Shown piece by piece: positions 40,778 through 54,790 of a stretch of DNA of 64,000 bases (the stretch's first letter is position 1; each line of letters begins with the position of its first letter). This DNA is from Botryllus schlosseri (Eukaryota). A program made the position numbers and the translations under genes. The notes under the pieces are model-generated. The model searched no databases. It had not been told where the DNA came from and saw only the letters and a list, made by a program, of their open reading frames with translations. Where the stretch lies: the NCBI GenBank assembly GCA_051294905.1, contig CM119372.1, positions 2,172,001 through 2,236,000 of the forward strand, in the 5' to 3' direction.

Positions 40778-40849
40778 GGGGATTTAGCTCAGCGGTAGAG
40801 CAGCTGTCTTGCAAGCAGAAGGTCACGGGTTCAATTCCCGTATTCTCCA
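40778..40849 (+). tRNA. tRNA-Ala(UGC)
   Basis: GGGGATTTAGCTCAGCGGTAGAGC...TTGCAA...GGTTCAATTCCC...TTCTCCA; cloverleaf with G3:U70 Ala identity pair, A/B boxes, TTTTT terminator immediately downstream. Confidence 0.85.
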
Positions 40850-40918
40850 CCCTTTTTACGTTGAAGTGCTATTGACGCAACGGTGGTGCAATCATTTCAA
40901 TTTTGATTGTCACTCAGA

Positions 40919-41380
40919 ATGTGTGCTTTGAAAAGACTGTGTTTCGAGCGAGAAAAGTTTCGGAAATGTTCTGATTCTACTATCAAAGCGGGACCGATTG
41001 ACGAATCGAATCTATTTAGTTGGTGGGCAACAATTCAAGGACCCCAAGGAACACCATACGAAAAAGGAGTGTTTAAAATATCAATAGAATATCTCACAGA
41101 GTATCCGTTTCGAGCCCCGAAGATGAGATTTGAAACTCATATATATCACCCGAACATTAGTGTAAAAGGCACTATATGTGTGGATATTTTGCAGAAGCAA
41201 TGGTCACCAGCGCTAACTACATCAACCGTGCTGCTATCAATATCTTCGTTACTTGGCACACCAAATCCAAACGATCCTATGAATGCGGAAAGTGCACATC
41301 TCTATCTGGAAGATAGACAACTCTACTTTAAACGTGCTCAGCATTATACCGAACGCTATGCCAGAGTCAACTGCGATTAG
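40919..41380 (+). CDS. Ubiquitin-conjugating enzyme E2 (UBE2D/Ubc4-like)
   Basis: GPQGTPYEKG, YPFRAP, HPN motif and catalytic Cys in GTICVDIL, WSPAL, PNPNDP; AATAAA at 41481. Confidence 0.93.
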   Translation: MCALKRLCFEREKFRKCSDSTIKAGPIDESNLFSWWATIQGPQGTPYEKGVFKISIEYLTEYPFRAPKMRFETHIYHPNISVKGTICVDILQKQWSPALTTSTVLLSISSLLGTPNPNDPMNAESAHLYLEDRQLYFKRAQHYTERYARVNCD

Positions 41381-41565
41381 CGGAGTGATCTATCGTGATT
41401 ATCGTGATTACAATGATTAAAACTATCATTTGCTTGCGACTTGTTTATGCCTTGTATTGATTATGGATCGCAACCTTTGTAATAAAAACTCCATAATGTG
41501 TTGGTTATATGATAGTGCGAGTTAGTGATTTATCGGTGCACTGGTCTGAGCTTGACTTGCGTGCT

Positions 41566-41637
41566 GATTCGTTGGTCTAGGGGTATGATGCTCGCTTTGG
41601 GAGCGAGAGGTCCCGGGTTCAAATCCCGGACGAATCT
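41566..41637 (+). tRNA. tRNA-Pro(UGG)
   Basis: Near-canonical eukaryotic tRNA-Pro body with a fully paired acceptor stem GATTCGT/ACGAATC; TTTT downstream. Confidence 0.9.
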
Positions 41638-41704
41638 GCATTTTGCTACTACCTAATACACAACCGAACACGAGTCAGTGATTTATTGAGTTATGAAACG
41701 ACCA

Positions 41705-41995
41705 TCACAAATGGAATAGGATTATATTACCAACAACAATCGCCTTACCCTTGAAATCAATTACTAAGGGTGATTTATAAAGCACACGATAATGTTCGTC
41801 TTTACAGACAATGATATTACGCGATGGGTATGTAACACAATCTTCAATTGGTTTCACTACAATTCTATTATCATAATGGAAAAGTATACACGTGTAGGGA
41901 ATGGTAATTGATCTCACGTTGGGCAATACAATCATTTCCTCATAATTACGACTCGACTCAAACTGAGTAGCAACAGAAATTCTTGCCATGGTCAT
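41705..41995 (-). CDS. Hypothetical protein
   Basis: Last ORF of the minus-strand block; ATGA overlap with upstream small ORF; AATAAA just downstream (~41682). Confidence 0.55.
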   Translation of the reverse strand: MTMARISVATQFESSRNYEEMIVLPNVRSITIPYTCILFHYDNRIVVKPIEDCVTYPSRNIIVCKDEHYRVLYKSPLVIDFKGKAIVVGNIILFHL

Positions 41996-52643: not shown

Positions 52644-52690
52644 AGATACTAGTATCTGAAAAAATATCAAGACAATAGTCAGTACATATA

Positions 52691-53095
52691 TTAGAAATTG
52701 AATCCATATTTCAAGCGCAGTTTACATTTAATTACACCGTATAGAAACACAAACTTAATTTTTTCAAGACGCTGAATCTCAACAATGCAAGCATTCGAGT
52801 CACTAGATAGTTTTTCAATGTCTTTCATGGTGTTTTTAATTATGTTTAGAAAATTTTTCGAGTAGTCTTGGTCAAATACTTCCATCGAAACAAGTCGATT
52901 CCACATAGCTTCCATCTTCAAATCGTCGTCAACTAGACCTTCGATCAAAGACATAGTGTCTTGACGCGAGCGCTTTCGGCTTTCATTTTGACTCTGATAT
53001 ATTTTGCTCATGTCTTTTCTCGGAGCCTGCATCGTTACACTTTGATGAGGTGCGTTCATATCTAACAAGTCACTTATGTCAATGAAGTTATCCAT
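52691..53095 (-). CDS. Hypothetical protein
   Basis: 134-aa ATG-initiated ORF co-oriented with the core. Confidence 0.6.
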   Translation of the reverse strand: MDNFIDISDLLDMNAPHQSVTMQAPRKDMSKIYQSQNESRKRSRQDTMSLIEGLVDDDLKMEAMWNRLVSMEVFDQDYSKNFLNIIKNTMKDIEKLSSDSNACIVEIQRLEKIKFVFLYGVIKCKLRLKYGFNF

Positions 53096-53178
53096 ACTGA
53101 GCTGCGAACAAAAAAGATTGAATTAGCACTGTATCAACATGCATCAAAATATTAGTACTAAATCAACATGCATCAAAA

Positions 53179-54414
53179 TCATTCACATTCCTCGTAAGTA
53201 CGTTTGATATCACGAAATTTAGCATAGAAACTCATTGCATGCATATCAGTTTCTACTTCATTGCCGTTATTGCGAGTTTTTACTGAAGTACGATTCAATA
53301 ACGAATACAGAACAGTATCACGACCATGACTATTCAATGCTTCTACTGACGGATCGTAAAGTTTATTTCCAAATTTTACGACAACAGTTTTTCCGGCAAA
53401 TGATAGTGGGTACTTTTCAGTCATGATCTCAGAGCCATTTTTCACATCACAAAACATCCAGAAAGAGGCAGGCTTAATCAAGCCATAATCGCAGTTCACA
53501 GCTGTGCGTTGTACTGTCATAATAGTCTCTAGGAGAGCAGCATTATTCATGAAAATACTAGCGCAATTCGGAAACATACAAATAGATTTGTCGGTATCGT
53601 AATATCTGAATGCATCCAACTTTTCCAAAGTACTCAATACATAGTTTGCTATATCACTAGTCAAAAACATATGAGTCAGTATTTCTTTACCAGAGTGACA
53701 ATCACCATCAAACCAAAAATTCGGGGCTATATCTCTGCGGCGAACATAACCTTCAAAGATAGAAACAACGAGCGCAGCCCTGAGGAAATTAAGACTACGC
53801 ATTTGTCCAGCATACCAAATTTCGGTGATATTTTTTTCAAGCGCAGAATACAAAAACACAGCATTTTGAATCGTGGGTTGAGGACTTAACTTTTCGATCA
53901 CTTTATTGAATTTTCGACTTCTCATATAATCACTTGCCAGAATTTCACTTGTACTGGATTCGCGCAACACTCGAATAACAGAAATCACAGAGCGCCTACG
54001 AGCACTAACATTTGTTGAATCAGACGAGGCACTTTGATCACTAGCTAACGATCTAATATTCGATATCATTGGCGAATCATCATCAGACAGACCACTTAAC
54101 ATCGCTGTTTCTGTATCTTCTCGGGTGGACTGCTTGTTCGAAGGCGCTACACCAAAATGACCATTTTTCATGATATTGCGTATCTCTGCACGCGCTGCTT
54201 CCGTACGACGAATTTTGATTGGAGGACTATTCTCATCCGTACGTCGAATTTTAAGAAAAGGTTGAGTGTTTTGCCAATCAAAACCTTCGCTGGTTGATTT
54301 AGCTTCACTGCTATCATCACCGGTGATGTCAATCACATCAACTTGAGTCGTACTACTTTCGTTATCTACTGCGACTTGTTCCATCTCGTCATTTACGGCT
54401 TGTTCAGTATTCAT
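53179..54414 (-). CDS. Hypothetical protein (acidic/Ser-rich N-terminus, globular C-terminus)
   Basis: ~411-aa open frame; family not recognised. Confidence 0.7.
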   Translation of the reverse strand: MNTEQAVNDEMEQVAVDNESSTTQVDVIDITGDDSSEAKSTSEGFDWQNTQPFLKIRRTDENSPPIKIRRTEAARAEIRNIMKNGHFGVAPSNKQSTREDTETAMLSGLSDDDSPMISNIRSLASDQSASSDSTNVSARRRSVISVIRVLRESSTSEILASDYMRSRKFNKVIEKLSPQPTIQNAVFLYSALEKNITEIWYAGQMRSLNFLRAALVVSIFEGYVRRRDIAPNFWFDGDCHSGKEILTHMFLTSDIANYVLSTLEKLDAFRYYDTDKSICMFPNCASIFMNNAALLETIMTVQRTAVNCDYGLIKPASFWMFCDVKNGSEIMTEKYPLSFAGKTVVVKFGNKLYDPSVEALNSHGRDTVLYSLLNRTSVKTRNNGNEVETDMHAMSFYAKFRDIKRTYEECE

Positions 54415-54707
54415 TCTCAATACTCAATAACTAAAGTACGCCGTATTCGAAATACTGAGCGTATCTAAATCTATTCCCTAACGACGTCTGCGCGATACTC
54501 GACAATAACAAAACGCAGCTGTTCGAACGTAGTGGAACTTAGCATTGGTAGCTCTAAATGCGCCGTTAAAATCAATTCCCCAATGAGTTAGACAACAGTG
54601 CGTTACTCGTAGCGATTCAATCGTAATACTCTATAATATCAAAAACGCAAATGACTGCGATCTCTAAATAGTAGTCGCATAGCTGAGGCTAAACAACGCG
54701 AATAAAT

Positions 54708-54790
54708 ACTGGGTTGGCCGAGTGGTTAAGGCGTTGGGTTTAAGTTCCAATGAGCAAGTGTTCACGTGGGTTCGAATCCCACACCTAGTA
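54708..54790 (+). tRNA. tRNA-Leu(UAA)
   Basis: ACTGGGTTGGCCGAGTGGTTAAGGCG TTGGG TTTAAGT TCCAA ... GTGGGTTCGAATCCCAC ACCTAGTA; 83 nt, long variable arm, paired stems, A73. Confidence 0.88.

What the first reader, a model, noticed from the sequence alone, without database searches (positions are those of the whole stretch)
40778..54790. Three tRNA genes inside the Polinton, all with U34 anticodons
Seen: tRNA-Ala(UGC) at 40778, tRNA-Pro(UGG) at 41566 and tRNA-Leu(UAA) at 54708, interspersed with accessory genes and with intact A/B boxes. The Leu gene lacks an immediate T4 terminator. Known: tRNA cargo is typical of phages and giant viruses, not small polintons. Inference: all three read A-ending codons (GCA, CCA, TTA), so they could supplement translation of AT-rich viral genes. 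They could instead act as Pol III promoters (VA-RNA-like) or chromatin insulators.
Basis: partly seen in the sequence, partly recalled or inferred. Interest (0 to 1): 0.85.

Follow-up and report, generated by a model that had tools for sequence, protein, structure and literature searches.

The report
Three tRNA genes carried by Polinton
A young, many-copy virus-like transposon (Polinton) in an animal genome carries three well-formed tRNA genes beside cell-death-control genes, and two of them are kept far better than the DNA around them, so they are probably working cargo of a kind already known from related small viruses.

Summary
Observation confirmed. ARAGORN and Rfam (58-67 bits) find tRNA-Ala(UGC), tRNA-Pro(UGG) and tRNA-Leu(UAA) at the stated places. 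All lie inside a 17,829-bp Polinton (39650-57478) with 220-bp inverted ends, AG...CT termini and the target duplication TACGTA.

The family has 12 copies at 97-99.95% identity. Six, the window's included, were checked at both ends and each has its own 6-bp duplication.

In 11 aligned copies Ala and Pro vary at 3 of 145 columns, against 85 of 376 in their flanks. Both end in T-run terminators. tRNA-Pro differs from the genome's array-type tRNA-Pro by two compensatory acceptor-stem pairs. A sister family (capsid protein 84-87% identical) carries its own tRNA-Ala(UGC).

tRNA-Leu is weaker: no nearby terminator, no excess conservation, and decayed in 3 of 11 copies that still spread.

The codon-supplement idea has thin support. 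One host gene uses TTA and GCA less than the element but CCA more, and element GC equals flank GC. Expression could not be tested.

tRNAs in polinton-like viruses and virophages are in print, and this scan noted Polinton tRNAs before on other DNA. Related metagenome contigs rarely hold one (2 of 80). New member of a known kind.

The parts
39644..39649 (.). Left target-site duplication TACGTA
   Evidence: the same 6 bp flank both ends. Five other copies each have their own 6-bp duplication.
39650..39869 (.). Left terminal inverted repeat; the element starts with 5'-AG
   Evidence: pair I4, 98% complementary; similarity to sister copies begins here.
39899..40417 (+). Bcl-2 family gene (accessory cargo)
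   Evidence: PF00452, E 4.7e-21. AATAAA at 40469.
40778..40849 (+). tRNA-Ala(UGC) with G3:U70 and A73. Two stem mismatches, at 6:67 and 27:43.
   Evidence: (67.4 bits). One variable column of 72 in 11 copies.
40853..40857 (+). T5 run, a Pol III terminator-like site after tRNA-Ala
   Evidence: A T5-T6 run is kept in all 11 copies.
40919..41380 (+). Ubiquitin-conjugating enzyme E2 gene (accessory cargo)
   Evidence: PF00179, E 1.5e-47. Poly(A) signals at 41416 and 41481.
41566..41637 (+). tRNA-Pro(UGG). Its only non-pair, 13:22 in the D stem, is shared with the array-type gene. Acceptor pairs 2:71 and 3:70 are changed on both sides relative to that gene. Discriminator U73.
   Evidence: (61.1 bits). 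Two variable columns of 73 against 69 of 226 in the flanks.
41641..41644 (+). T4 run, a Pol III terminator-like site after tRNA-Pro
   Evidence: Kept in all 11 copies.
41705..54414 (-). Core module on the minus strand. It holds the capsid protein (42862-44139), rve+chromo integrase (46260-47267), A32-type ATPase (48152-48883), the 1288-aa B-family polymerase (48777-52643) and unassigned ORFs.
54708..54790 (+). tRNA-Leu(UAA), type II with a long variable arm and A73. No stem mismatch in this copy. No T4 run for 277 nt.
   Evidence: (57.9 bits).
54873..55056 (.). 83-nt tandem repeat (2.3 copies) between tRNA-Leu and the BIR gene, probably part of the BIR promoter region
   Evidence: Fold z-score -2.28. 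TATA-like match reported at 55105; the text TATAAAA is readable upstream of the ATG at 55153.
55153..55539 (+). BIR (IAP-type) gene (accessory cargo)
   Evidence: PF00653, E 7e-11.
56658..56942 (-). Death-domain gene (accessory cargo)
   Evidence: PF00531, E 6.1e-11.
57259..57478 (.). Right terminal inverted repeat; the element ends with CT-3'
57479..57484 (.). Right target-site duplication TACGTA

Best explanation
The three sequences are eukaryote-type tRNA genes read by RNA polymerase III. They are heritable cargo of a young, recently mobile Polinton (adintovirus-like) family.

Proposed mechanism, inferred and not shown:
1. Internal A and B boxes recruit TFIIIC, TFIIIB and Pol III.
2. Ala and Pro transcripts end at the T-run 4 nt past the gene.
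3. Host enzymes process the products, add CCA and charge them.
4. This adds to the pool of U34 tRNAs that read GCA/GCG, CCA/CCG and UUA while the element expresses its roughly 5000 codons of genes.

The benefit would be faster or more robust translation of element genes. Those genes use TTA and GCA more than the one host gene read here. Alternatively the tRNAs could buffer against loss of these tRNAs in a stressed or infected cell.

tRNA-Ala and tRNA-Pro look maintained by selection. tRNA-Leu looks dispensable and is being lost in one sublineage.
For: **The genes are real and well formed.**
- Searches agree on them. The element's Pro scores 61.1 bits against 56.7 for the genome's array-type Pro. 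Its Leu scores 57.9 against 60.6 and 48.0 for other Leu-TAA genes.
- Pair tables show no stem mismatch in Leu. In Pro the only non-pair is 13:22, which the array-type gene shares.
- Ala keeps G3:U70 and A73, and Leu keeps A73 and the long arm. Their role as identity elements is recalled.

**They are cargo, not host neighbours.**
- The element is bounded by a 6-bp duplication and AG...CT ends.
- There are 12 capsid genes at 97-100% identity.
- ARAGORN finds Ala and Pro in 10 of 10 fetched sister copies and Leu in 7 of 10.

**Selection.**
- In 11 aligned copies Ala+Pro have 3 variable columns of 145, against 85 of 376 in their flanks (Fisher p 2e-10).
- The two changes inside Pro are a D-loop insertion and a C-G to U-G change.
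- Pro differs from the array-type gene at 2:71 (G-C to A-U) and 3:70 (C-G to U-A), both compensatory.
- Leu differs from L056 at 30:40 (A-U to G-C).

**Longer retention.**
- 13 of 14 capsid genes of a sister family (84-87% identical protein) have a tRNA-Ala(UGC) about 2.07 kb away in the same relative orientation. It scores 73.4 bits and has no stem mismatch.

**Codons.**
- TTA is 22% of Leu codons in the element against 6% in a host HSP70 gene (p 0.008). GCA is 29% against 14% (p 0.036).
Against: - No expression data.
- The codon case rests on one host gene of about 630 codons. CCA runs the other way (25% in the element, 37% in HSP70). Third-position A is 27.9% in both. The element's commonest Ala and Pro codons are GCT and CCT, which these tRNAs do not read. 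Element GC equals flank GC.
- The host tRNA gene pool per anticodon could not be counted: 36,083 candidates, 63 scored.
- tRNA-Ala in this family has two stem mismatches that the sister family lacks.
- tRNA-Pro has U73 where the array-type gene has C73, and the effect on charging is unknown.
- tRNA-Leu has no T4 run for 277 nt. It is no better conserved than its flanks (21 of 83 against 58 of 213, p 0.77). It carries 5-nt and 6-nt deletions in 3 of 11 copies, and two of those (C14, C2c) have unrelated flanks and so spread after the decay.
- The diverged twelfth copy (C1:6.10M) shows no match to the E2 or tRNA-Pro part.
- Copies of one family are related, so the column counts are not independent events.
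- Among 80 metagenome contigs with a related polymerase, only 2 hold a tRNA confirmed by Rfam, and it is Asp-GUC, not U34.
Confidence: 0.5

Rival explanations
1. The tRNA genes work as DNA, not as RNA. As TFIIIC/Pol III binding sites they would act as chromatin barriers or insulators. They would separate the accessory arms from the core module, or shield the integrated element from silencing.
For: tRNA-Pro (41566-41637) and tRNA-Leu (54708-54790) bracket the whole minus-strand core block 41705-54414. All three genes sit in the few sizeable intergenic gaps at module borders. That tRNA genes can act as barriers is recalled knowledge and was not tested here.
Against: Barrier activity needs mainly the A and B boxes. 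Here the whole Ala and Pro genes are conserved, and the Pro acceptor stem changed by paired substitutions that keep the helix, which points to selection on the RNA. Leu, one of the two 'brackets', is decayed in 3 of 11 copies that still spread. The gaps are also simply the only room available.
Confidence: 0.12
2. The genes are passive passengers. Host tRNA genes were picked up by recombination along with host-derived cargo (Bcl-2, E2, BIR, Death) and look intact only because the family is young.
For: The copies are only about 3% diverged. Leu decays freely. Ala has two stem mismatches. The arms are modular and exchanged between Polinton families. tRNA cargo is rare in relatives, 2 of 80 contigs.
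Against: At the same age the flanks of Ala and Pro vary about ten times more per column. tRNA-Ala persists in a sister family whose capsid protein is 13-16% diverged, with every stem position paired there. The element's Ala and Pro are not copies of any abundant host gene. The nearest non-element Pro differs at 7 positions, including two compensatory pairs.
Confidence: 0.15
3. The tRNAs are counter-defence cargo. They would replace or outlast host tRNAs that are cleaved or depleted by an antiviral or stress response. This would fit the element's other anti-cell-death genes.
For: The element carries Bcl-2, BIR, Death-domain and E2 genes, so it invests in host manipulation. The Pro and Leu genes differ from the other genomic versions at positions 26, 32, 38 and 73 and in the acceptor stem while keeping the fold. 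PMC12220804 (passages) raises countering host-driven tRNA depletion for PLV tRNAs. tRNA-cleaving restriction of Leu-UAA in vertebrates is recalled and was not checked.
Against: No tRNA-targeting nuclease was sought or found in this genome. The sequence differences have no known link to nuclease resistance. Leu is the gene being lost.
Confidence: 0.1
4. tRNA-Leu is a Pol III promoter that drives a longer non-coding RNA through the downstream repeats, in the manner of VA RNA or of herpesvirus tRNA-miRNA units.
For: There is no T4 run for 277 nt after Leu. An 83-nt tandem repeat with palindromic parts follows. The 285-nt stretch folds somewhat better than shuffles (z -2.28; 3 of 200 shuffles fold as well).
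Against: Ala and Pro terminate at once. The downstream stretch ends in a TATA-like site and looks like the BIR promoter. No Rfam family matches there. The fold is one long irregular structure, not discrete hairpins. The unit is dispensable in 3 of 11 copies.
Confidence: 0.05

Closest known systems
tRNA genes of polinton-like viruses and virophages (PMC12220804, PMC6905037; passages read)
   Same: Small (about 15-40 kb) integrating viruses of the same realm with DJR capsid genes carry one or a few tRNA genes. Leu-TAA and Pro-TGG are among the virophage anticodons reported. Codon compensation and countering tRNA depletion are the functions proposed there.
   Different: Those are protist-associated elements, mostly with a single tRNA. 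Here an animal-genome Polinton with a protein-primed-type polymerase and rve integrase carries three. It is present in 12 near-identical integrated copies, which allows a conservation test. The tRNAs are of the animal cytoplasmic type.
Adintoviruses / animal Polintons-Mavericks (PMC8502044; passages read)
   Same: Polymerase, rve integrase, capsid and A32-type ATPase genes are present. Bcl2 and IAP homologues are noted there as accessory genes. The N-terminal polymerase part has an OTU-like Cys motif (read; the motif itself is recalled).
   Different: In that paper predicted tRNA genes are flagged only in the legend of Figure 6, for MELD viruses with other replicases. I found no statement of tRNA genes in adintoviruses proper. 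Its supplements were not read.
tRNA genes of phages and giant viruses (Bailly-Bechet 2007, as cited within PMC12220804; not read)
   Same: Virus-borne tRNAs matching codons that the virus uses more than its host. Here TTA and GCA fit that pattern against one host gene.
   Different: Those genomes often differ in GC from their host. Here element and flanking genome have the same GC, and CCA does not fit.
Herpesvirus tRNA-like Pol III units and adenovirus VA RNAs (recalled)
   Same: Pol III genes with internal promoters in an animal DNA virus. tRNA-Leu lacks a close terminator.
   Different: The genes here are canonical cloverleaves with identity elements and score as ordinary tRNAs. No linked hairpins were found and there is no VA RNA match.

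Membership tests
Polinton/Maverick | 6-bp target-site duplication and 5'-AG...CT-3' termini with terminal inverted repeats | tested here: met
   TACGTA at both ends. Five other copies have TCGGTT, GTTTTG, ACCAGT, AATGTT and CTCGAC. TIR of 220 bp at 98% complementarity.
Polinton/Maverick | Retrovirus-type (rve) integrase | tested here: met
   PF00665, E 1.9e-13, plus a chromodomain (PF00385), in 46260-47267.
Polinton/Maverick | Protein-primed-type family B DNA polymerase | tested here: inconclusive
   No Pfam hit and no PDB sequence hit. However, 83 homologues were found, and 5 of them carry PF03175 as a precomputed domain. DxE, NSxxYD, DxxSLY, NSxxG and DTDS stretches are readable in the translation and are conserved in alignment A1. 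The motif names are recalled.
Polinton/Maverick | Double jelly-roll major capsid protein, A32/FtsK-type packaging ATPase, adenain-type protease | tested here: inconclusive
   ATPase met (PF04665, E 8.5e-10). Capsid: Pfam DJR-like only at E 0.14, and one 30%-identical homologue is named 'Major capsid protein' by a source. Protease: no family hit. No structure was predicted.
Adintovirus (as proposed in PMC8502044) | OTU-like domain fused to the polymerase, adenovirus-like virion genes, animal association | not tested
   Only an OTU-like Cys motif was read by eye. No profile or fold test was run.
Eukaryotic cytoplasmic tRNA gene (Pol III type 2) | Cloverleaf scoring above the family threshold | tested here: met
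   67.4, 61.1 and 57.9 bits against a gathering score of 29. Pair tables.
Eukaryotic cytoplasmic tRNA gene (Pol III type 2) | Internal A and B boxes; T-run terminator shortly downstream; CCA not encoded | tested here: inconclusive
   Boxes can be read in all three; the consensus is recalled. Terminator met for Ala (T5 at +4) and Pro (T4 at +4), not met for Leu (+277). No CCA follows the discriminator in any of the three.
Eukaryotic cytoplasmic tRNA gene (Pol III type 2) | Transcribed, processed and aminoacylated | not testable with these tools
No run on record as RNA holds the stretch.
   Ala-with-flank matches: 12, all family A. The other 14 Ala matches all lie about 2-3 kb from a Polinton capsid gene. 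Element-type Pro: 11 element copies plus one solo locus. Present in 10 of 10 (Ala, Pro) and 7 of 10 (Leu) fetched sister copies.

The most novel reading that the evidence does not exclude
The element's tRNAs are variant tRNAs selected for a job beyond codon supply. The Pro acceptor stem is re-paired and its discriminator changed, and positions 26, 32 and 38 differ in Pro and Leu. The job could be resisting a host tRNA-cleaving or tRNA-depleting antiviral response. That would make them part of the same host-manipulation kit as the Bcl-2, IAP, Death-domain and E2 genes. It would be the first such counter-defence tRNA set in an animal DNA virus or transposon.
Probability: 0.1. Interest if true: 0.8.

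Novelty: new member of a known kind. Interest (0 to 1): 0.5.

Why it matters
Polintons sit on the border between transposons and viruses. A family with 12 near-identical, separately inserted copies looks like a virus that manages its host cell rather than a bare transposon. It keeps open capsid and integrase genes, a set of cell-death regulators, and two tRNA genes conserved well above their flanks.

Because many dated copies lie in one genome, this is one of the few places where selection on virus-borne eukaryotic tRNAs can be measured directly. The element-specific bases make the tRNAs traceable in tRNA-seq.

If the tRNAs prove to be expressed and charged, tRNA cargo, known from phages, giant viruses, virophages and protist PLVs, would extend to animal Polintons.

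Tried and rejected
- **Expression.** The look-up of sequencing runs listed no holder on record as RNA. Nothing was laid.
- **Host codon usage.** The window's other ORFs are reverse-transcriptase and GIY-YIG fragments or have no family, so they were not usable as host genes.
- **Host tRNA census.** The RF00005 search of the genome scored only 63 of 36,083 candidates, so anticodon counts were not possible.
- **A mistaken comparator.** I first took the 86%-identical tRNA-Ala matches for host genes. One search showed that they belong to a sister Polinton family. No true host tRNA-Ala was obtained.
- **Viral contigs.** The search with the capsid protein found no relative.
- **Polymerase.** Pfam and PDB sequence searches with it gave nothing.
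- **SINE-head reading.** Rejected.
- **Segmental duplication as the source of the copies.** Rejected for the copies examined. Six copies, the window's included, have unique target duplications, and four pairs of sister copies compared have unrelated flanks.
- **Literature.** Searches found no paper describing tRNA genes in animal Polintons or adintoviruses, beyond the Figure 6 legend of PMC8502044. Supplements were not read. The preprint 10.1101/2024.03.25.586562 holds no occurrence of 'tRNA'.
- **Technical.** One search was over the size limit and was resent smaller.
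Full report
**1.
ARAGORN finds exactly three tRNA genes in the window: Ala(tgc), Pro(tgg) and Leu(taa), all on the + strand. Rfam's tRNA model matches the same places in full length, at 40778-40849 (67.4 bits), 41566-41637 (61.1 bits) and 54708-54790 (57.9 bits), against a gathering score of 29. No other Rfam family reaches its threshold.

The box A and box B regions can be read in the sequence. The first run of four or more T begins 4 nt after Ala (T5) and 4 nt after Pro (T4), but only 277 nt after Leu.

**2. The setting is a bona fide, young Polinton.**
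Blast of ten sister copies against the window shows similarity starting at about 39647-39650 and ending at about 57478. The ends read 5'-AGTAGTATTATACAC...GTGTATAATACTACT-3' and are flanked by the duplication TACGTA. Five other copies have the same ends and each has its own 6-bp duplication. The inverted ends are about 220 bp long (pair I4).

Inside the element lie these genes:
- an rve+chromo integrase and an A32-type ATPase;
- a 425-aa protein whose few relatives include one that a source names major capsid protein;
- a 1288-aa protein with family-B polymerase motifs. It has no Pfam or PDB hit of its own, but 83 homologues, five of them carrying PF03175;
- in the arms, Bcl-2, ubiquitin-conjugating E2, BIR and Death-domain genes.

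The paper that proposes adintoviruses notes Bcl2 and IAP homologues as accessory genes (PMC8502044, passages).

**3. Family size and age.**
The capsid protein has 12 matches at 97-100% identity in the 495-Mb genome, out of 99 scored from 273 candidates. There are further families at 84-87%, about 70% and about 34% identity.

The ten fetched copies are 97-99.95% identical to the window copy in DNA. All ten keep open capsid and integrase frames. Four pairs of sister copies compared have unrelated flanks. The copies examined at their ends are therefore separate insertions, not segmental duplicates.

**4. The tRNAs travel with the element.**
ARAGORN finds Ala(tgc) and Pro(tgg) at the same relative places in 10 of 10 fetched copies, and Leu(taa) in 7 of 10.

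A twelfth, more diverged copy (C1:6.10M) was not fetched. It matches the Ala stretch and the right arm, including the Leu part, at 80%. It shows no match to the E2 or tRNA-Pro part.

**5. Conservation.**
In alignments of the 11 copies, the counts of variable columns are:

| Gene | Variable columns in the gene | Variable columns in the flanks | Fisher p |
|---|---|---|---|
| Ala | 1 of 72 | 16 of 150 | 0.014 |
| Pro | 2 of 73 | 69 of 226 | 7e-8 |
| Ala + Pro | 3 of 145 | 85 of 376 | 2e-10 |
| Leu | 21 of 83 | 58 of 213 | 0.77 |

- The terminator T-runs after Ala and Pro are kept in all 11 copies.
- The copies are related, so these counts are not independent events. The contrast with indel-rich flanks of the same age is nevertheless strong.
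- Leu behaves differently. Seven sister copies are identical or nearly so to the window in both gene and flanks. One (C2b) has four substitutions and scores 40.8 bits.
- Three copies (C15, C14, C2c) carry 5-nt and 6-nt deletions and no longer score as tRNA. C14 and C2c have unrelated flanks, so that sublineage spread after Leu decayed.

**6. Comparison with other tRNA genes of the genome.**
- **Pro.** The commonest tRNA-Pro sequence in the genome stands in long tandem arrays (L054). It differs from the element's Pro at seven positions. These are 2:71 (G-C to A-U) and 3:70 (C-G to U-A), both changed on both sides with the helix kept, plus positions 26, 38 and the discriminator (C to U). One solo locus (C9:5684435, L051) holds the element-type Pro with one change. 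It shares the sequence up to the T-run but has unrelated flanks.
- **Ala.** All 14 matches outside family A lie 2.06-3.0 kb from a Polinton capsid gene. Thirteen lie beside the 14 capsid genes of the 84-87% family, in the same relative orientation. One lies beside a 71% capsid gene. The sister family's Ala(tgc) scores 73.4 bits and has no stem mismatch. Family A's has mismatches at 6:67 and 27:43. In the sister family the E2 gene lies just upstream of Ala, whereas in family A the order is Ala, E2, Pro. No true host tRNA-Ala was obtained.
- **Leu.** The other Leu(taa) genes found often stand in inverted pairs 8-19 kb apart. Two sampled ones (L057, L058) share the element's flanks or abut a Death-domain gene, so they belong to other Polinton-like elements. 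Against L056 the element's Leu has 30:40 changed on both sides (A-U to G-C) and has no stem mismatch.

**7. Codon use.**
Over 5016 codons the element uses GCA for 29% of Ala, CCA for 25% of Pro and TTA for 22% of Leu. Its third positions are T 34%, A 28%, G 19% and C 19%.

The only host gene I could read is an intronless HSP70 of about 630 codons. Its figures are GCA 14%, CCA 37% and TTA 6%, with third-position A at 27.9%, T 19% and C 31%. By Fisher's test TTA (p 0.008) and GCA (p 0.036) are higher in the element, and CCA is not (p 0.28).

Element GC is 39.9%, the same as the window's flanks at 39.9% and 39.3%. The element differs from this host gene mainly in T against C at third positions. 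U34 tRNAs do not serve T-ending codons. Support for codon supplementation is therefore partial and rests on one gene.

**8. Downstream of Leu.**
An 83-nt tandem repeat (2.3 copies, 54873-55056) lies between Leu and the BIR gene. A TATA-like site follows, ahead of the BIR start at 55153. The 285 nt up to the first T4 run fold with z -2.28 into one irregular structure. I read this stretch as the BIR promoter rather than as a Pol III-driven RNA.

**9. Relatives elsewhere.**
A scan of metagenome contigs with a polymerase alignment returned 80 loci (524,157 nt in all; 15 of them 12 kb or longer).
- ARAGORN calls a tRNA in 3 of them.
- Rfam, run on 9 of the 80 including those three, confirms two. 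These are L118 and L120, one element type, carrying Asp-GUC with a T5 run.
- tRNA cargo is therefore sporadic among relatives, and the U34 pattern is not general.
- With the usual eukaryotic anticodon sets (recalled), three random picks would all be U34 about 4% of the time. That figure is my own arithmetic and the pattern was noticed after the fact.

**10. What is known.**
- tRNA genes are reported in polinton-like viruses and virophages: 558 in a set of about 8300 genomes (PMC12220804, passages). They are also reported in 30 virophage contigs, including Leu-TAA and Pro-TGG (PMC6905037, passages).
- Codon compensation, capture from the host and countering tRNA depletion are the explanations offered there.
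- PMC8502044 flags predicted tRNA genes in one figure legend, for MELD viruses with other replicases.
- Searches turned up no description of tRNA genes in animal Polintons. Supplements were not read.
- Earlier notes of this scan report tRNAs in or beside Polinton-like elements on other DNA. I did not check them.

**11. Verdict.**
- The genes are conserved cargo of an active-looking animal Polinton. Ala and Pro are probably working tRNAs. Leu is dispensable.
- The purpose is unproven. Translation support is the best guess, with counter-defence and chromatin-barrier roles as rivals.
- This is a new member of a known kind, virus-borne tRNAs in small DJR-capsid viruses. It is of moderate interest, mainly because its many dated copies and traceable bases make it a good test system.

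Noticed in passing
window 39899-40417, 40919-41380, 55153-55539, 56658-56942: The Polinton's arms carry a cell-death and ubiquitin kit: Bcl-2, an E2 conjugating enzyme, BIR/IAP and a Death-domain protein. Bcl2 and IAP are in print for adintoviruses. I did not find E2 or Death-domain cargo mentioned in the passages read.
   Followed up: partly
G000 genome-wide: The genome is crowded with Polintons. The capsid search gave 273 candidates, of which 99 were scored. They fall into at least four families, at 97-100%, 84-87%, about 70% and about 34% identity, and most have open frames.
   Followed up: partly
G000 C8:4626418/4645458, C2:1138490/1154953, C6:21315199/21331071, C10:1308514/1323141, C1:39554379/39571263; L057, L058: Other elements 15-19 kb long carry the tRNA-Leu(taa) unit in both inverted ends. 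In L057 it is whole but decaying. In L058 it is truncated and abuts the start of a Death-domain gene.
   Followed up: partly
G000 C7:5836657/5846095, C6:3175554/3185016, C4:17826321/17835782, C6:10259728/10269306, C2:38599141/38607030: Well-formed tRNA-Leu(taa) genes (L055, L056) also occur as inverted pairs 8-10 kb apart, some with a second tRNA-like fragment about 200 nt away. This suggests another element type with a tRNA gene in its terminal repeats.
   Followed up: no
L051 = G000 C9:5684335-5684613: A solo copy of the element-type tRNA-Pro with one change. Similarity begins at the first tRNA base and ends at the T-run, and the flanks are unrelated. It lies about 18 kb from a sister-family Polinton copy. 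It could be the source gene, a retrocopy of the transcript, or part of that copy's far arm.
   Followed up: partly
G000 C1:30754755-30800452, C2:39121134-39123975, C3:34488226-34508096: Very large tandem arrays of tRNA genes (period about 170 nt for tRNA-Pro), and 36,083 tRNA-like candidates genome-wide.
   Followed up: no
G000 C1:34136938-34403655: A cluster of sequences 69-74% identical to the element's E2 gene. It may be a host E2 gene cluster from which the cargo gene was taken.
   Followed up: no
window 9628-26029: A nested set of long inverted repeats, with arms of 80-270 nt at 76-96% complementarity and centred near 15,100 (pairs I2, I3, I5-I8, I10, I14, I19, I20, I22, I25). It looks like a large palindromic or fold-back structure.
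   Followed up: no
window 34345-37269: Reverse-transcriptase fragments and a weak GIY-YIG match lie just left of the Polinton. This combination is typical of Penelope-like retroelements (recalled).
   Followed up: no
L034, L036, L046, L050 versus window 53125-55154: A sublineage of four copies (C15, C2b, C14, C2c) shows no match to all or part of the 411-aa ORF (53179-54414). In its place it has a copy of the stretch 56965-57275, next to a diverged (about 84%) Leu region. The arms are therefore reshuffled between lineages.
   Followed up: partly
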